Virus record (IMG/VR): IMGVR_UViG_3300031787_000010
Location: 9,429 to 73,428 of that record
Strand: one strand, 5' to 3'
Length of the DNA: 64,000 nt
Origin: a virus
Taxonomy: Duplodnaviria > Heunggongvirae > Uroviricota > Caudoviricetes
The notes under the pieces are model-generated. The model searched no databases. It had not been told where the DNA came from and saw nothing but the letters and a program-made list of their open reading frames with translations. Position numbers and translations under genes: made by a program. This document shows, in pieces, positions 38,109 to 48,890 of the stretch. Position 1 is the first letter of the stretch. Every line of letters begins with the position of its first letter.

Positions 38109-38137
38109 TTGACAAACTCAACACGCTGGTGTATAAT
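38109..38137 (+). promoter_or_regulatory. consensus sigma70 promoter opening the RNA island
   Basis: TTGACA-17-TATAAT with TG extension. Confidence 0.85.
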
Positions 38138-38146
38138 TAAAGTGTG

Positions 38147-38284
38147 GTCGGAATTACCCCCGAGTAATCGGGCAGTCCAAAAGACGGTTAGATAATCTCC
38201 TTCCACATAAAAGGTTTACTTTCCGAGTTCCCGGCCTCCGACAACGAGGAAATAACTCCGACGTATGGCTCACGACACGAGCCA
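38147..38284 (+). ncRNA. unassigned structured RNA
   Basis: Closing stem GTCGGA/TCCGAC, CCCGA-GTAA-TCGGG, TGGCTC/GAGCCA; no ORF. Confidence 0.4.
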
Positions 38285-38290
38285 CTCTAC

Positions 38291-38362
38291 GCCGCGTTCG
38301 TCTATCGGTTAGGACATAGCCCTTTCAAGGCTAGAAGGCGGGTTCGATTCCCGCACGCGGTA
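38291..38362 (+). tRNA. trnE: tRNA-Glu(UUC)
   Basis: Cloverleaf, loop CTTTCAA. Confidence 0.93.
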
Positions 38363-38386
38363 CTTGGTGCACCGAAGCGCAGTCGA

Positions 38387-38608
38387 GGTGATGAAATGAA
38401 AGAACGTGCAAAATCTTTCAGCCAAAAGTTCCCGTCAGCTTCAATGGTTGTCTGACGTTAAACAATGAATCATTCCGTTTCCACGACACGGGATACGCTG
38501 TGGGGTTGGTTAGTGCTTTCTTACCAAACAAGAAACGCAAAGGTTAAGGGGAGCGGGTCTAGACCGCGCGACATCCTTGGGTAACTGGAAACTACCTCAA
38601 TTGTCACC
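38387..38608 (+). ncRNA. unassigned structured RNA
   Basis: Closing GGTGAT/GTCACC, TGAAAGA/TCTTTCA, CGTCAG/CTGACG, TTTCTT/AAGAAA stems. Confidence 0.4.
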
Positions 38609-38615
38609 CCTCTGA

Positions 38616-38686
38616 TGCCCACTCGTATAATGGCAATACAGTTGACTTTGGATCAACGAATCGTGGTTCGATTCCATGGTGGGCAA
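38616..38686 (+). tRNA. trnQ: tRNA-Gln(UUG)
   Basis: Cloverleaf, loop CTTTGGA, U1-A72. Confidence 0.93.
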
Positions 38687-38690
38687 TAAC

Positions 38691-38796
38691 AGATGTGCAA
38701 CGAGGGCAACGCCTGTGGTGGGGGCTACGTTCGAGTAACATAGTTGTCTAGTAACATTGGTGTGTGAACGACACGTTGAGCGACCTGGTCACATCT
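38691..38796 (+). ncRNA. unassigned structured RNA
   Basis: AGATGTG/CACATCT and CAACG/CGTTG closing stems. Confidence 0.35.
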
Positions 38797-38846
38797 ACTC
38801 TTTTTGTTCCTAGCAGTTCCTAATTAACTTTTAAATGGAGTACAAT

Positions 38847-38999
38847 ATGTACAAGTTTCTTCTTGTTCTTACTGTTGCTACGTTGACCGCTTGCAGCACA
38901 AAGGAAGTTGCCGAAACTACGGCAGATTCTACTGCTGTAGCTATCGATTCGGTCAAGGTAACTACCGACAGTGCTGTTGTTGATTCAACCGCTAAGTAA
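38847..38999 (+). CDS. 50-aa lipoprotein
   Basis: Not in the ORF track; SD GGAG; MYKFLLVLTVATLTA-C lipobox; DST/DSV/DSA-repeat tail. Confidence 0.75.
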   Translation: MYKFLLVLTVATLTACSTKEVAETTADSTAVAIDSVKVTTDSAVVDSTAK

Positions 39000-39108
39000 G
39001 CAATACTGATGAGGCCTTAATGGCCGAAAGGTTTCCCACGGCGATTCTAGAGCATGGGGAAATTAAAATGGGACACACTCATAGAACGCCGGTCCCTACC
39101 TCTATTGC
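39000..39108 (+). ncRNA. type I hammerhead ribozyme
   Basis: Stem I GCAATA/TATTGC, CTGATGA core, stem II GGCC-TTAAT-GGCC, GAAA, stem III AGGT/ACCT, CUC cleavage triplet (cut after 39102). Confidence 0.85.
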
Positions 39109-39193
39109 AAGGAGACTTCCTCGTAAACGTATGTACGAGAATTAGTCTAATCAATGATGGTAAATGGTAAGCGCACCAGACTCATTGGCCCAC

Positions 39194-39222
39194 TTGACAA
39201 GTATTTTACTGACGTTTATACT
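39194..39222 (+). promoter_or_regulatory. sigma70 promoter
   Basis: TTGACA-17-TATACT. Confidence 0.75.
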
Positions 39223-39309
39223 TAAGAGTGATACTAATATAAATAAAAATAAAAATTTCAGGGGAGTTATGGTTGTCCCCACAGAAGTGCGCACTTCAAC
39301 AACCATCCT

Positions 39310-46380: not shown

Positions 46381-46385
46381 ATCTA

Positions 46386-46470
46386 GGACAGGTGGCCGAG
46401 TGGTTTAAGGCAGCAGTCTTGAAAACTGCCGAACTGAAAGGTTCCGTGAGTTCGAATCTCACCCTGTCCG
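46386..46470 (+). tRNA. trnS: tRNA-Ser(UGA)
   Basis: Loop CTTGAAA, long variable arm, G73. Confidence 0.93.
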
Positions 46471-46485
46471 TTTTTTGGAGGTTTT

Positions 46486-46809
46486 ATGAACGATTTAGTT
46501 AAAAAATATTTTGCCGCACTCTCTAACAAAAATTTAACGACATTATCTGAATTATACCACGATGATGTTGTTCTTTGGGAATGGGGTCAACGTGTTTTCA
46601 TAGGAAAGGAAGAAGTATTGAAAGCTAACGAAGAACTGTTCAGCTCGTCGGAAACTTTAACGGTGCTCGTACAAACGTCTGCTACAGACGGTGATAAACA
46701 CTACTGCGAATTATCTATTATACTGGATGAAAAATTAATTTCAGTACTTGATGTTCTTACTATAAAAGATGATAAGATTTTTTCCGTACAGGCATACCGA
46801 GGATTCTAA
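46486..46809 (+). CDS. SnoaL/NTF2-like protein
   Basis: VKKYFAAL...LYHDDV...GKEEV...GKI-like end. Confidence 0.7.
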   Translation: MNDLVKKYFAALSNKNLTTLSELYHDDVVLWEWGQRVFIGKEEVLKANEELFSSSETLTVLVQTSATDGDKHYCELSIILDEKLISVLDVLTIKDDKIFSVQAYRGF

Positions 46810-47168
46810 TGCGATTTCTTACCCGCAAACTAGTACAACCAGGAGATTTAAATGCTAACGGTACTCTGTTTGGTGGTCGTTGTCTTGCTTGGGTTGACGA
46901 AGAAGCAGCAATCTATGCGGCAATCGAAACACGACACAAGAAAGTCGTAACGAAAAGTATTTCAGCAATTAATTTTGTCGCTCCTGCGTTTCAAGGTGAT
47001 GTGGTAGAAATCGGTATAGCTCTAAAAAAAGTTGGTAGAACATCACTTACATTAGAAGTTCAAGTACGAGATTTGACTACACAAAGAATAATTGTAAATA
47101 TTGATGAAATGGTATTCGTATGTGTTGATGATACGGGAAAGCCAACACGACACTCTTTGAGCACATGA
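46809..47168 (+). CDS. acyl-CoA thioesterase (hotdog fold, YciA-like)
   Basis: DLNANGTLFGG..L.W.DE.A; VGRTSL.LEV; MVFVCVD..GKP. Confidence 0.9.
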   Translation: MRFLTRKLVQPGDLNANGTLFGGRCLAWVDEEAAIYAAIETRHKKVVTKSISAINFVAPAFQGDVVEIGIALKKVGRTSLTLEVQVRDLTTQRIIVNIDEMVFVCVDDTGKPTRHSLST

Positions 47169-47175
47169 GGTCAGT

Positions 47176-47574
47176 ATGATTGAAACTATTGGTATAATTG
47201 TTAGTGTTGCTACAGGAATCTTATCTGGAATCGGTACCGTAAAAGGACTACAAGCTGACAAGAAGAATACAATTAGCCAATTCTTAAATGTTATCGCTGA
47301 CACTATTGATGAAGCTGTTGTGAAGTTTAAGAATGATGAGATTCCCCACGGCGCATGTGAACGTATGAGACGATACGCCACAGAGTTCCCATATGCATTA
47401 GAAGGTTATATGGAAACTGACAAGTTACAAACTTATGCTGACGAGTTATATCGGGCTCACGAAATTGAACAACTGTATAAAACAGTAAAGGATAGTCCAG
47501 AAAGTATAGCAGAACTGGAACGCGCTGCCAGTGGATTTAGAGTAGCAGCAAATATGATTAAATTTACCAAGTAG
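47176..47574 (+). CDS. hypothetical protein
   Basis: SD GAGG. Confidence 0.6.
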   Translation: MIETIGIIVSVATGILSGIGTVKGLQADKKNTISQFLNVIADTIDEAVVKFKNDEIPHGACERMRRYATEFPYALEGYMETDKLQTYADELYRAHEIEQLYKTVKDSPESIAELERAASGFRVAANMIKFTK

Positions 47575-47582
47575 AGGTTACT

Positions 47583-47837
47583 ATGAACTTAACGCCACAA
47601 GATAAGAAAAAGCTCGAGAACGCCTTAAAGGATATGAGCGCGTCAATGGCACGGCAATCAGCCGAACGTGATTTGCAAAAGAATGTTATTGGTGATATCT
47701 GCGAAGAGTTGGATTTAAATAAGAAAGTGTTTCGTAAGCTAGCGAAGGTCTATCACAAGCAGAATTTCGCAGACGAGGTAGCTACTCATCAAGAATTTGA
47801 ATCTCTCTATGAGACGGTCACTAAAAATACCTTATAA
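47583..47837 (+). CDS. T4 DsbA-like dsDNA-binding protein
   Basis: EEL.L.KK.F.KLAKVYHKQNF..E...EF.SLYETV. Confidence 0.75.
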   Translation: MNLTPQDKKKLENALKDMSASMARQSAERDLQKNVIGDICEELDLNKKVFRKLAKVYHKQNFADEVATHQEFESLYETVTKNTL

Positions 47838-47845
47838 TAGACCCC

Positions 47846-47874
47846 TTGACAAATAATTGGTTTTTGGGTAAATT
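47846..47874 (+). promoter_or_regulatory. sigma70 promoter
   Basis: TTGACA-17-TAAATT. Confidence 0.65.
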
Positions 47875-47902
47875 TCAATATATCCCAAACCAAGAGGTTT
47901 TT

Positions 47903-48460
47903 GTGAATCAGATTCAGAAGTATATCGATCATTATGAGAACAAACTTTCCCTTGCAGCTTCTTATGCGAAGAAAAATGAAAAGGGATTTGTTCGTTCGAC
48001 GATGGGTGAATTGGTTGAAGGTATGTTGGATTTGATTTGGACGGATGTTGTTGGTGGTTCCTCTAAAAAGAATGACTATGTGGTTTCGAAAAGCACGAGC
48101 GGAATTAAGCTGAAGTTTCAGGTTGATCGACATCTATACACTCCTTCTAACACTCTTGTCGCGTTAGGGGAGTGTAAAGCATATCTTGACCGATGCTTTA
48201 TGGAACGTGCAAGTAGTGATTTTAGTCGAATCACCCGTGGTCTTAAACAGAAACCGGCAACATTTATTCTGGCACTCGAACAAGCTACTGGAAAAGATGC
48301 GTTTCAGTACTATATGGATGAAGGTCATATCGATCATATTTTCTTTTTGTGTGATGGCATTCGTTCACCAAAGAAGCCTATCTGGAATAACAACTTTTAC
48401 AAGCCTATCAATCGTAAGAGTTTGCAATCCTTTGTTTCCTTTATTGAATCAATGAGGTAA
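47903..48460 (+). CDS. PD-(D/E)XK restriction-endonuclease-like protein
   Basis: E...QVD(x12)GECKAY motif; GTG start with SD AAGAGG. Confidence 0.55.
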   Translation: MNQIQKYIDHYENKLSLAASYAKKNEKGFVRSTMGELVEGMLDLIWTDVVGGSSKKNDYVVSKSTSGIKLKFQVDRHLYTPSNTLVALGECKAYLDRCFMERASSDFSRITRGLKQKPATFILALEQATGKDAFQYYMDEGHIDHIFFLCDGIRSPKKPIWNNNFYKPINRKSLQSFVSFIESMR

Positions 48461-48585
48461 TTTATGTTATTCAAAATGGCAATGTTGCTTGTGGGTCTTA
48501 TCTTTATTGTGGCCACGTTCGGTGCTATATATCTTGGGTATGAAAAAAATACAGAAGAGTATAACAATCGTAATAGGAAAGATTT

Positions 48586-48795
48586 ATGAAAACGGTTTTT
48601 ATTGTATTAGGTATTTGGACAATGGTTTCTTTAATATTTTGTTTTGTTATCTGGCCTAGAATTGCAAACCGATTTATTCCAGCAACCAACGATACCTTTA
48701 TCAGATCAAGATGTAGAAAGTGCGGAAATATTCAACGGTGTTGTGCACCGCCTTGTTCAAAGTGTCAGAGTATTGACATGGAAATGCTAAAATAA
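48586..48795 (+). CDS. TM plus Zn-ribbon small protein
   Basis: TM then CRKC...CSKC. Confidence 0.55.
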   Translation: MKTVFIVLGIWTMVSLIFCFVIWPRIANRFIPATNDTFIRSRCRKCGNIQRCCAPPCSKCQSIDMEMLK

Positions 48796-48803
48796 TAGAA
48801 GTT

Positions 48804-48890
48804 GGAAGTGTGGCCGAGTGGTTTAAGGCAGCTGTCTACTAAACAGCCGTGGGATAATACCTACCGTGAGTTCGAATCTCACCGCTTCCG
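48804..48890 (+). tRNA. trnS: tRNA-Ser(ACU)
   Basis: Ser body (long arm, G73); loop CTACTAA. Confidence 0.85.

What the first reader, a model, noticed from the sequence alone, without database searches (positions are those of the whole stretch)
38109..48890. Candidate system: a 10.8-kb tRNA island punctuated by a ribozyme, many unassigned structured RNAs and microproteins
Seen: 30 tRNA genes covering all 20 amino acids, no encoded CCA noticed, six internal sigma70 promoters, one clear hammerhead, at least seven non-coding segments with strong closing helices, and sub-60-aa ORFs. Inference: a translation-takeover/anti-defence RNA factory in which some spacers are functional RNAs or undiscovered self-cleaving processing elements. 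Phage theta ribozymes are a precedent for tRNA-linked ribozymes.
Basis: partly seen in the sequence, partly recalled or inferred. Interest (0 to 1): 0.75.

Follow-up and report, generated by a model that had tools for sequence, protein, structure and literature searches.

The report
Phage tRNA island with embedded structured RNAs
This is the tRNA gene cluster of an uncultured freshwater T4-like phage; between its 29 tRNA genes lie a genuine self-cutting hammerhead RNA, four conserved folded RNAs that no catalogue lists (one very abundant in lake RNA samples), and several tiny conserved protein genes.

Summary
ARAGORN and Rfam agree on 29 tRNAs (38291-48891, + strand) covering all 20 amino acids. 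None encodes CCA. A 30th, variant tRNA-Gly-like gene lies at 39311-39382. Strong sigma70-type promoters are enriched on the + strand: 4 at 11/12 or better against 0.17 expected.

The hammerhead (39000-39108, cut after 39102) is real. Rfam misses it because of a 70-nt insert in stem III, but orthologues in four relatives keep all three stems through compensatory changes.

Four spacers are conserved structured RNAs absent from Rfam:
- E2 (38424-38615)
- E5 (39597-40036)
- E6 (40441-40645)
- E13 (45084-45275)

E2, E5 and E6 beat every one of 500 shuffles for covariation; E13 rests on three sequences and folding z-scores. The ends of all four mostly coincide with tRNA ends, which implies release by RNase P and RNase Z. 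E5 contigs are 20-50 times deeper than ORF contigs in three lake metatranscriptomes.

Other "spacers" are really micro-ORFs: a 50-aa lipoprotein, a 30-aa basic peptide and two membrane peptides. The stretch 45.6-48.8 kb is ordinary coding DNA.

I found no evidence for further ribozymes, and the anti-defence role is untested. This scan has already met hammerheads in tRNA clusters of other phages. Verdict: a new variant of a known kind, comparable to the T4 tRNA operon with its stable RNAs C and D.

The parts
38109..38137 (+). Promoter P1 (TTGACA-17-TATAAT, 12/12), followed by the 153-nt leader 38138-38290
   Evidence: leader partly conserved in L005 and L003
38291..38363 (+). tRNA-Glu(UUC), first gene of the island in the window and in L001, L002, L003, L004, L005 and L200
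38424..38615 (+). E2: conserved structured RNA (pseudoknot hairpin, variable hairpin, Y-shaped 3' module). It is the 5' leader of tRNA-Gln.
   Evidence: CM R2: 17 hits, 11 distinct; 23 of 34 pairs compensatory; 0/500 shuffles reach this. 3' end flush with tRNA-Gln in 12 of 14. RNA contig 38397-38606, depth 25.
38616..38686 (+). tRNA-Gln(UUG)
38847..38999 (+). 50-aa lipoprotein micro-ORF (lipobox LTAC). Its stop codon abuts hammerhead stem I.
   Evidence: Conserved with its lipobox in L003, L005, L200 and L202
39000..39108 (+). Type I hammerhead ribozyme. Stem I 39000-05 / 39103-08; core CUGAUGA 39006-12; stem II GGCC/GGCC; GAAA 39026-29; stem III AGGU/ACCU enclosing a ~65-nt structured domain; predicted cut after C39102.
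39194..39222 (+). Promoter P2 (11/12), within a block conserved in L002 and L200
39311..39382 (+). Variant tRNA-Gly(UCC)-like gene (T-loop UGCAACU; U33G in this phage)
   Evidence: called as tRNA-Gly(tcc) in L002, L005, L200 and L204
39385..39550 (+). tRNA-Met(CAU) and tRNA-Leu(UAG)
39561..39589 (+). Promoter P3 of E5 (TTGACA-17-TAAGTT, 9/12). The -35 box is conserved in L005.
39597..40036 (+). E5: ~440-nt ornate multi-hairpin RNA that ends in a terminator-like hairpin and U-run directly before tRNA-Lys
   Evidence: 99 predicted pairs, 27 compensatory, with 3 sequences. Core: 33 of 69 pairs compensatory against 11.7 in shuffles, 0/500. MFE z -3.3. Exact RNA contigs of depth 57-164 in three metatranscriptomes. 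No Rfam match. Flush with tRNA-Lys in 4 of 4.
40037..40440 (+). Five tightly packed tRNAs: Lys(UUU), Ile(UAU), Met(CAU), Leu(UAA), Gly(UCC)
40441..40645 (+). E6: conserved structured RNA with a 10-bp closing helix and 8 helices. It starts at the first base after tRNA-Gly.
   Evidence: CM R1: 19 hits, 13 distinct; 98.7% of cells paired; 19 of 50 pairs compensatory; 0/500 shuffles. No Rfam match.
40660..41277 (+). 205-aa ORF with a weak GDSL-lipase-like match
41294..41366 (+). tRNA-Thr(UGU)
41388..41480 (+). 30-aa very basic micro-ORF (MPHPKKCGKGRRK...)
   Evidence: Synonymous-type substitution pattern in 7 sequences; peptide conserved
41488..42106 (+). tRNA-Gly(GCC); 42-aa ORF 41581-41709; promoter P4 41713-41741; tRNA-Ala; 43-aa membrane micro-ORF 41881-42012; tRNA-Phe
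42122..42934 (+). Three ORFs of 66, 69 and 125 aa; no family match
42939..43891 (+). tRNAs Asn and Cys; 78-aa ORF 43117-43353; tRNAs Trp, Asp, Met; 63-aa ORF 43614-43805; tRNA-Tyr
43917..44393 (+). HNH homing-endonuclease-like ORF that overlaps the start of tRNA-Ile(GAU)
   Evidence: phrog_2255, E 3.7e-25
44371..45079 (+). tRNAs Ile(GAU), Arg(UCU), His; 54-aa membrane micro-ORF 44648-44812; tRNAs Thr(GGU), Arg(UCG); promoter P5 44963-44991; tRNA-Pro
45084..45275 (+). E13: two adjacent structured modules. E13a is 45084-45199 (10-bp closing helix); E13b is 45200-45275 (11-bp closing helix, Y-shaped).
   Evidence: MFE z -3.3 and -4.2. Conserved in L001, L213 and L219 with 5 and 2 compensatory pairs. 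RNA contig 45098-45303.
45332..45546 (+). tRNA-Val(UAC) and tRNA-Leu(CAA)
45634..48795 (+). Ordinary coding block: a phrog_13607 protein; tRNA-Ser(UGA) 46386-46470; SnoaL-like; 4HBT thioesterase; 132-aa ORF; T4 DsbA-like 47583-47837; 204-aa, 41-aa and 69-aa ORFs
48803..48891 (+). tRNA-Ser(ACU), last gene of the island
   Evidence: the same anticodon occurs in L001, L002, L006 and L207

Best explanation
The region is the tRNA and small-RNA module of an uncultured freshwater T4-like myovirus (a 166.6-kb IMG/VR record). It is transcribed rightwards from at least four or five sigma70-type promoters into polycistronic precursors, in which the tRNAs act as punctuation.

Host RNase P cuts at tRNA 5' ends and RNase Z at the 3' ends, since no CCA is encoded, and the host CCA-adding enzyme completes the tRNAs. 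These cuts release:
- 29 tRNAs that decode all 20 amino acids;
- one variant tRNA-Gly-like RNA;
- at least four conserved structured RNAs (E2, E5, E6, E13) whose ends coincide with tRNA ends;
- short mRNAs for microproteins and a homing endonuclease.

At one place there is no tRNA to make the cut, directly after the stop codon of a small lipoprotein gene. There a type I hammerhead ribozyme cuts the transcript itself after C39102. This sets the 3' end of the Glu-E2-Gln-lipoprotein unit and separates it from the next promoter unit.

Shown here: the genes, the promoter matches, the covariation, the coincidence of RNA ends with tRNA ends, and the presence and relative abundance of E5, E2 and E13 in RNA libraries.

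Inferred: the processing enzymes, self-cleavage in vivo, and the purpose. The tRNAs most likely sustain translation of the AT-rich phage genes. The structured RNAs are stable passengers of unknown function, like T4 RNAs C and D.
For: - tRNAs. No encoded CCA and no phage CCA-adding enzyme.
- T4-like context: Baseplate_J-like and DsbA-like proteins and a tmRNA.
- Promoters: 4 sites at 11/12 or better against 0.165 expected, with a strong strand bias.
- Hammerhead core and helices: window I GCAAUA/UAUUGC, II GGCC/GGCC; L002 I GCAGUA/UACUGC; L200 CUGACGA with II GCCC/GGGC; L003 has all three stems different and GUC at the cut; L129 is a further example. Chance expectation 0.017 per genome.
- Hammerhead position: the lipoprotein stop codon abuts stem I in the window, L003 and L200.
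- Covariation: E6 19 of 50 pairs and 45 cells against 10.3, 0/500 shuffles. E2 23 of 34 pairs and 54 cells against 18.3, 0/500. E5 core 33 of 69 pairs against 11.7, 0/500, with slid controls at 2-7.
- Ends: E2 3' end flush with tRNA-Gln in 12 of 14; E5 flush with tRNA-Lys in 4 of 4; E6 5' end flush with a tRNA 3' end in 8 of 19 and within 11 nt or less of (or overlapping) a downstream tRNA in 6; E13 flush on both sides in L001.
- Expression: exact RNA contigs on E5 at depths 87, 57 and 164, against 2-4 on ORFs of the same phage in the same three runs; E2 at 25; E13 at 9.
- Precedent: T4 RNAs C and D, whose function is still unknown (PMC9697503). Phage hammerheads are proposed to cut long transcripts into gene-length RNAs (PMC3088659).
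Against: - No RNA ends were measured. The metatranscriptome data are assembled contigs, which cannot show 5' or 3' ends, strand or true level, and the three runs may belong to one sampling campaign.
- One RNA contig (X17, 38711-39097 plus 25 unaligned letters) may run across the predicted cut site, so uncleaved RNA or DNA is present.
- E6 is not always next to a tRNA; the gap is 95-501 nt in 11 of 19.
- The E5 hairpin plus U-run just before tRNA-Lys looks like a terminator. If it is efficient, it conflicts with co-transcription of the five downstream tRNAs.
- The host is unknown: there is no psbA, although relative L001 carries cyanophage-type pigment genes. Which RNases act is therefore inferred from general bacterial knowledge.
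- Rfam does not call the hammerhead: best 14.6 bits to RF00008, gathering score 48.5.
Confidence: 0.72

Rival explanations
1. The structured spacers have no function of their own. They are leader and trailer scaffolds selected only so that neighbouring tRNAs, especially tRNA-Gln and tRNA-Lys, fold and are processed correctly within long precursors. After processing they are waste.
For: - E2 is the 5' leader of tRNA-Gln in 12 of 14 loci, and E5 is the 5' leader of tRNA-Lys in 4 of 4.
- L003 manages with a 233-nt short form of E5.
- MFE z-scores for E2 (+0.4) and E6 (-1.9) are no better than ORF controls.
Against: - Many unpaired stretches are invariant across relatives, for example GGGGUAAAAGUCC, the CUUAACC loop, UGAUACA and ACCACA in E5, and GGUUAGUGGUCGUAUGG in E6. 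A mere spacer would not need that.
- E6 keeps its fold next to different tRNAs (Gly or Met) or next to none.
- E5 has its own conserved promoter and is 20-50 times deeper than ORF contigs in RNA libraries.
- A 440-nt RNA with about 99 base pairs is far more than a leader needs.
Confidence: 0.2
2. One or more spacers, E6 above all, are new self-cleaving ribozymes that trim tRNA ends. This is the hammerhead-independent counterpart of theta ribozymes, and it is the first reader's idea.
For: - E6 begins at the first base after the discriminator of tRNA-Gly or tRNA-Met in 8 of 19 loci. Theta ribozymes place their cut site at the same position (PMC10879173).
- This phage group already uses one ribozyme in its island.
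Against: - No ribozyme family matches at E<=10, even when the elements are searched alone.
- In E6 the 5'-terminal strand pairs with the extreme 3' end. This does not fit the HDV-like nested double pseudoknot, nor hatchet, which needs a conserved 3' tail.
- In 11 of 19 loci E6 lies 95-501 nt from the upstream tRNA.
- RNase Z explains the shared end without new chemistry.
Confidence: 0.06
3. The island is chiefly a counter-defence device. Its tRNAs replace host tRNAs that are cut by defence nucleases, and the structured RNAs or the variant tRNA-Gly act as decoys or inhibitors of such nucleases.
For: - Published cases show phage tRNAs escaping or neutralising tRNA-targeting defences (PMC10264068, PMC11464382, PMC11555353).
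- E2 and E5 are tied to tRNA-Glu(UUC)/Gln(UUG) and to tRNA-Lys(UUU). From my own knowledge, these three tRNAs carry xm5s2U34 and are classic anticodon-nuclease targets.
- The unusual anticodons Ser(ACU) and Ile(UAU) and the variant tRNA-Gly are conserved in relatives.
Against: - Nothing in the sequence tests this.
- A full 20-amino-acid set in an AT-rich phage (GC about 0.34-0.40 against unknown host GC) is equally expected under codon supply.
- No defence or anti-defence protein families were found in the island.
Confidence: 0.15

Closest known systems
Bacteriophage T4 tRNA operon with stable RNAs C and D (species 1 and 2)
   Same: T4-type phage. tRNA genes are clustered with small stable non-tRNA RNAs that are made from the same region and whose function is still unknown (PMC9697503; their position in the tRNA region is from my own knowledge of the T4 genome literature). 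Release by the tRNA-processing enzymes is the working model here too.
   Different: 29 tRNAs rather than 8. At least four structured RNAs, one of 440 nt with its own promoter. A ribozyme and several micro-ORFs are interleaved. No sequence similarity to any of 50,697 phage records beyond the tRNAs themselves.
Large tRNA sets of T4-like cyanophages (S-CRM01, S-CBWM1, S-PM2, S-CREM1)
   Same: Aquatic T4-like myoviruses with 24-33 tRNAs, some with a full set (PMC9964418). Relative L001 carries cyanophage-type heme oxygenase and bilin reductase genes.
   Different: Those reports list only Rfam-known RNAs (wcaG, manA, glnA, abiF). Neither the hammerhead nor E2, E5, E6 or E13 is described there. This genome record has no psbA, so the host is open.
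Type I hammerhead ribozymes of phages and prophages (Perreault et al. 2011, PMC3088659; Rfam RF00163)
   Same: The full catalytic core, three helices, an open stem I, and an intergenic position in a phage transcript, where it is proposed to cut long RNAs into gene-length pieces.
   Different: Stem III carries a conserved structured domain of about 65-70 nt (91 nt and 62 nt, of different sequence, in L003 and L129). Rfam models therefore score it far below threshold. In L005 the domain survives without the catalytic core.
Theta ribozymes (minimal HDV-like ribozymes next to phage tRNAs; PMC10879173)
   Same: A small self-cleaving ribozyme embedded in a phage tRNA cluster.
   Different: A different ribozyme class. 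The cut here is about 415 nt downstream of the nearest upstream tRNA (about 110 nt in L002) and about 210 nt upstream of the next tRNA-like gene, so it does not trim a tRNA end. The habitat is freshwater rather than gut.
GOLLD and ROOL large ornate RNAs (PMC5737381; 10.1101/2024.12.08.627333)
   Same: E5 is a large, multi-hairpin, phage-borne RNA next to tRNA genes, from lake samples.
   Different: No match to the Rfam GOLLD or ROOL models at E<=10. E5 is smaller, about 440 nt, and only 233 nt in L003. Whether it forms multimers is unknown.

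Membership tests
Hammerhead ribozyme | Conserved core C3 U4 G5 A6 N7 G8 A9 ... G12 A13 A14 | tested here: met
   CUGAUGA at 39006-12 and GAA at 39026-28. L200 has CUGACGA; position 7 is free to vary.
Hammerhead ribozyme | A15.1-U16.1 pair closing stem III, followed by a cleavage-site nucleotide H17 that is not G | tested here: met
   A39029 pairs with U39101, and H17 is C39102. The site reads CUC| in the window, L002 and L200, GUC| in L003 and GUA| in L129.
Hammerhead ribozyme | Three helices around the core, supported by covariation; G10.1-C11.1 at the base of stem II | tested here: met
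   Stem I: GCAAUA/UAUUGC, GCAGUA/UACUGC, ACAUUA/UAAUGU. Stem II: GGCC/GGCC, GCCC/GGGC, GUCC/GGAC. Stem III: AGGU/ACCU against ACAAUGG/CCAUUGU. G10.1-C11.1 is kept.
Hammerhead ribozyme | Score at or above the gathering threshold of an Rfam hammerhead model | tested here: not met
   No hit at E<=10 in the 12-kb scan. Searched alone, 14.6 bits to RF00008 (gathering score 48.5), covering only the core and stem II. The stem-III insert explains the shortfall.
Hammerhead ribozyme | Site-specific self-cleavage | not testable with these tools
   Needs a transcription and cleavage assay or end-specific RNA-seq. The RNA data available are assembled contigs.
tRNA (29 genes) | Cloverleaf and score above the Rfam RF00005 gathering score; independent call by ARAGORN | tested here: met
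   40.6-72.7 bits against a gathering score of 29, with the same 29 genes from ARAGORN. The 30th (39311-39382) fails both here but passes ARAGORN in four relatives.
Theta / HDV-like ribozyme (considered for E6) | Nested double pseudoknot in which the 5'-terminal strand (P1) pairs internally and the 3' end forms P2; cut at its own first nucleotide | tested here: not met
   In E6 the 5'-terminal strand pairs with the extreme 3' end, as a 10-bp closing helix with 5 covarying pairs. There are no HDV-family Rfam hits.
GOLLD / ROOL (considered for E5) | Match to the curated covariance models | tested here: not met
   No hit at E<=10, whether within 12 kb or with the element searched alone.
T4-type stable RNAs of tRNA operons (RNA C/D) | Non-tRNA RNA encoded among phage tRNA genes, excised from the tRNA precursor and accumulating stably | tested here: inconclusive
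   Position among the tRNAs and shared ends are met. Presence and high relative depth in RNA libraries are met for E5, E2 and E13. Excision and stability were not measured. No sequence homology to known phage records.

The most novel reading that the evidence does not exclude
E5, and perhaps E2, E6 and E13, are new classes of trans-acting phage RNAs. E5 would be a large ornate RNA in the manner of ROOL and GOLLD, among the most abundant transcripts of a common lake phage. It would act during infection by binding or sequestering host RNA-processing enzymes, or defence nucleases aimed at tRNA-Lys, tRNA-Gln and tRNA-Glu, the tRNAs it and E2 are physically tied to. The hammerhead's 70-nt stem-III domain would be a separate functional module, which is why L005 keeps it without the ribozyme core.
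Probability: 0.25. Interest if true: 0.85.

Novelty: new variant of a known kind. Interest (0 to 1): 0.62.

Why it matters
Phage tRNA clusters are usually annotated as lists of tRNAs with empty space between them. In this widespread freshwater phage group much of that space is under selection. It holds a ribozyme that standard models miss, four folded RNAs with strong covariation and no catalogue entry, and conserved microproteins.

The finding offers concrete candidates for experiments on what phage "stable RNAs" do, a question open since T4 RNAs C and D. One of them, E5, is abundant enough to see in lake metatranscriptomes. It also suggests a simple rule for finding more such RNAs: look for conserved elements whose ends coincide with tRNA ends. 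Finally, it shows a hammerhead acting as a tRNA-independent cut at the 3' end of an mRNA inside a tRNA operon.

Tried and rejected
- Rfam gathering and E-value scans of the island gave nothing beyond tRNAs and tRNA-derived false matches (Plastid-ycf2, YrlA, Tymo_tRNA-like, all on tRNA genes).
- Megablast and blastn against 50,697 phage records gave only tRNA-level hits. tblastn with a tail protein found only remote relatives.
- The search for related loci in IMG/VR with two island ORFs found nothing.
- A 14-mer scan (CGGGGTAAAAGTCC) returned 111 chance loci with no homologue. The design was poor and a scan was wasted.
- The metagenome scan with the phosphoesterase alignment returned 80 loci, all distant (51-70% identity). 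None carried E2 or E6 by covariance model, and only L129 had a hammerhead.
- An E13 29-mer had 0 hits in IMG/VR. Two E5 patterns found only L200.
- A covariance model of full-length E5 was not attempted because the alignment exceeds the 400-column limit. Covariation controls were computed in Python instead.
- Ro60/TROVE (the Y-RNA idea), a CCA-adding enzyme and psbA are all absent from this record.
- 41367-41487 as an RNA: rejected. It is a 30-aa ORF.
- Thermodynamic z-scores alone do not separate E2 and E6 from ORF controls.
- RNA contigs stopping at 39923-39929 and at 39097: I cannot tell a processing site from an assembly break.
- Parts of the island without RNA contig cover are not evidence of silence.

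Full report
**What the DNA is.** The window is bases 9429-73428 of a single 166,598-bp virus record, classed by IMG/VR as linear and estimated 89% complete by CheckV. Structural genes lie on the minus strand up to about 32 kb, including a Baseplate_J-like protein. A tmRNA sits at 28817-29154, and a T4 DsbA-like gene lies inside the flagged region. The island's DNA is held almost whole (82-96% of sampled 31-mers) by at least 14 freshwater or lake DNA runs from many studies. This is a common uncultured freshwater T4-like myovirus. Its host is not established. There is no psbA, although relative L001 carries heme oxygenase and a bilin reductase.

**Check of the observation.** ARAGORN and Rfam both call the same 29 tRNAs on the + strand from 38291 to 48891, and together these cover all 20 amino acids. 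None is followed by CCA, and the record has no CCA-adding enzyme.

It is conserved in six relatives, and ARAGORN calls it in four of them. The copy here carries U33G and an odd T-loop, and neither program calls it.

Strong sigma70-type promoters are real and strand-specific. There is a 12/12 match at 38109 and 11/12 matches at 39194, 41713 and 44963. That makes 4 sites against 0.165 expected, with a maximum of 2 in 200 shuffles. At 10/12 or better there are nine on the + strand and one on the - strand.

The RNA-dense part is 38.1-45.6 kb. From 45634 to 48795 the region is ordinary coding DNA: a phrog_13607 protein, SnoaL-like, 4HBT thioesterase, DsbA-like and others. It holds only two tRNA-Ser genes.

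**The hammerhead.** Rfam reports no hammerhead at E<=10 in the 12-kb scan. When the element is searched alone, the best result is 14.6 bits to RF00008, whose gathering score is 48.5.

A motif search finds CUGAUGA-GGCC-UUAAU-GGCC-GAAA at 39006-39029. My descriptor then completes a type I hammerhead spanning 39000-39108:
- stem I GCAAUA/UAUUGC;
- stem II GGCC/GGCC with G10.1-C11.1;
- stem III AGGU/ACCU closed by A15.1-U16.1;
- the cut after C39102.

With these criteria it is the only hit in the 166-kb genome. Sixty dinucleotide shuffles gave 0.017 hits per genome.

Orthologues clinch it:
- L002 has stem I GCAGUA/UACUGC, a double change.
- L200 has CUGACGA and stem II GCCC/GGGC.
- L003 has all three stems different but complementary (ACAUUA/UAAUGU, GUCC/GGAC, ACAAUGG/CCAUUGU) and the textbook GUC at the cut.
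- A more distant phage, L129, has another type I example about 390 nt upstream of three tRNAs.

Stem III encloses a conserved structured domain of about 65-70 nt. Its helices are UUUCCC/GGGAAA, GGGAC/GUCCC and a 13-bp CGGCGAUUCUAGAG/CUCAUAGAACGCCG pairing, with compensatory changes in L002 and L200 (read by eye). L005 keeps this domain at about 90% identity but has lost the catalytic core.

In the window, L003 and L200, stem I begins right after the stop codon of a conserved 50-58-aa lipoprotein ORF with lipobox L/V-T-A-C. In L002 the ORF is missing and the ribozyme follows tRNA-Gln by 3 nt. The cut is not at a tRNA end, and the next strong promoter lies 90 nt downstream. I read the ribozyme as the device that ends the first transcription unit. 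Self-cleavage itself was not tested.

**Spacers that are structured RNAs.** Relatives were reached through the phosphoesterase gene just upstream of the island and through exact DNA patterns in IMG/VR.

*E6 (40441-40645).* It has a 10-bp closing helix and eight helices. Covariance model R1 finds 19 copies, 13 of them distinct. Of all cells, 98.7% are paired. Nineteen of 50 pairs carry compensatory changes: 45 cells against 10.3 +/- 3.2 in shuffles, reached by 0 of 500. Slid controls give 0-3 pairs.

*E2 (38424-38615).* Model R2 finds 17 copies, 11 distinct. Twenty-three of 34 pairs are compensatory: 54 cells against 18.3 +/- 3.7, 0 of 500. By eye there is also a covarying loop-to-downstream pseudoknot, AUGGUU/AAUCAU.

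*E5 (39597-40036).* This is a ~440-nt array of hairpins closed by long-range helices. It has a conserved promoter at 39561 and a terminator-like hairpin before tRNA-Lys. With three sequences, 27 of 99 predicted pairs are compensatory. For the core with four sequences, 33 of 69 pairs are compensatory against 11.7 +/- 2.6 in shuffles, 0 of 500; slid controls give 2-7. The MFE z-score is -3.3. L003 has a 233-nt short form.

*E13 (45084-45275).* It consists of two modules with 10- and 11-bp closing helices and z-scores of -3.3 and -4.2. It is conserved in L001, L213 and L219, with five and two compensatory pairs. The evidence here is thinner.

None of the four matches any Rfam family, even when searched alone.

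**Spacers that are not RNAs.** The segment 41367-41487 is a 30-aa, very basic ORF, MPHPKKCGKGRRKIGSKKRNNRWKNRKRKH, with a Shine-Dalgarno site. Its substitutions across seven relatives are of the synonymous type. Further small ORFs with Shine-Dalgarno sites fill these stretches:
- 41581-41709 (42 aa)
- 41881-42012 (43 aa, membrane)
- 43117-43353 (78 aa)
- 43614-43805 (63 aa)
- 44648-44812 (54 aa, membrane)

These segments have low GC and unremarkable folding energies, except 41826-42033 (z -3.1). None has a Pfam family.

**How the RNAs get their ends.** The ends of the structured RNAs coincide with tRNA ends:
- The E2 3' end is flush (-4 to +2 nt) with the first base of tRNA-Gln in 12 of 14 loci. 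Its 5' end is flush with tRNA-Glu in 6.
- E5 ends at the base before tRNA-Lys in 4 of 4.
- E6 starts at the first base after a tRNA in 8 of 19 (tRNA-Gly four times, tRNA-Met four times). Six copies end 11 nt or less before, or overlap, a downstream tRNA.
- E13 is flush on both sides in L001.

With no encoded CCA, the standard bacterial route (RNase P at 5' ends, RNase Z at 3' ends, then CCA addition) would release these RNAs as by-products of tRNA maturation. This is an inference from established tRNA biology. It was not measured here.

**Expression.** I laid three lake metatranscriptomes (assembled contigs, three studies) and one DNA run on 37500-49500. Exact RNA contigs cover 39704-39929, 39604-39927 and 39619-39923 at depths of 87, 57 and 164. 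Exact contigs of the same runs on the phage's ORFs have depth 2-4. DNA carry-over would give even depth, so E5 is an abundant RNA. E2 (38397-38606, depth 25) and E13 (45098-45303, depth 9) appear in one run. Contigs cannot show ends or strand, and the three runs may belong to one campaign.

**Interpretation and rivals.** The best-supported reading is a multi-promoter, tRNA-punctuated RNA module. It supplies a full decoding set, and it carries stable structured RNAs, microprotein mRNAs and one ribozyme-made cut.

Rival 1, that the structured spacers are only processing scaffolds, is weakened by three observations:
- Single-stranded motifs are invariant across relatives.
- E6 keeps its fold whichever tRNA is its neighbour.
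- E5 has its own promoter and is abundant.

Rival 2, that some spacers are new ribozymes, has no positive evidence, and E6 has the wrong topology for ribozymes that cut at their own 5' end.

Rival 3 is a counter-defence role. It has good published precedents for phage tRNAs (PMC10264068, PMC11464382, PMC11555353). There is also a suggestive link of E2 and E5 to tRNA-Glu, tRNA-Gln and tRNA-Lys, but this is untested.

**Comparison with what is known.** The closest system is the T4 tRNA operon with its stable RNAs C and D, whose function is still unknown (PMC9697503). Large tRNA sets are known in T4-like cyanophages (PMC9964418). Hammerheads that punctuate phage transcripts are known (PMC3088659), as are ribozymes beside phage tRNAs (theta ribozymes, PMC10879173). 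This scan has itself noted type I hammerheads in the tRNA clusters of other phages.

What is new here:
- a hammerhead variant with a conserved stem-III domain that the standard models miss;
- four uncatalogued RNA families with solid covariation;
- their systematic coincidence with tRNA ends;
- the environmental abundance of E5.

**Verdict.** The feature is real. It is a new variant of a known kind and of moderate to high interest. The function of the structured RNAs remains the open question.

Noticed in passing
window 28817-29154 (-): Phage-encoded tmRNA (143 bits, tag GNYNLALAA). Relatives L003 and L005 carry one too, with different tags.
   Followed up: partly
window 48803-48891 and 40115-40189: tRNA-Ser with anticodon ACU and tRNA-Ile with UAU. 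Both unusual anticodons recur in several related phages (Ser-ACU in L001, L002, L006, L207; Ile-UAU in L001, L003, L005, L006, L200, L207), so they are conserved traits.
   Followed up: partly
window 39311-39382: Second, variant tRNA-Gly(UCC)-like gene with T-loop UGCAACU. It is conserved in six relatives alongside a canonical tRNA-Gly(UCC). The copy here has U33G and is not called by ARAGORN or Rfam.
   Followed up: partly
window 37549-38088 and 48915-49580: The island lies between two phosphoesterase genes that are directly adjacent in relatives L001, L007 and L008. tRNA order and island position are reshuffled between relatives, as if the island were a recombination hot spot.
   Followed up: partly
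window 52000-64000: GC jumps to 0.47-0.53, against 0.34-0.40 elsewhere. The segment holds second copies of tRNA-Glu(UUC) (58207) and tRNA-Lys(UUU) (60375), a GP88-family ORF (51910-52608), a tail-collar-domain ORF on the minus strand, and an ORF (61512-61856) with a weak, sub-threshold match to the ribosomal protein bL12 C-terminal domain.
   Followed up: partly
L007 4168-5778; L006 5697-6369: One relative encodes a Ro60/TROVE protein beside its tRNA cluster. Another has peptide-release-factor-like ORFs inside its island. The window's genome has no TROVE match.
   Followed up: partly
window 43917-44393: An HNH homing-endonuclease-like ORF whose last 23 nt overlap the start of tRNA-Ile(GAU).
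   Followed up: no
L005 11466-11546: The ~70-nt stem-III domain of the hammerhead is kept at about 90% identity in a relative that has lost the CUGAUGA core and stem II. This suggests the domain has a role of its own.
   Followed up: partly
window 22044-23078 (-): An IMP dehydrogenase / GMP reductase family gene (E 6e-104) among the structural genes.
   Followed up: no
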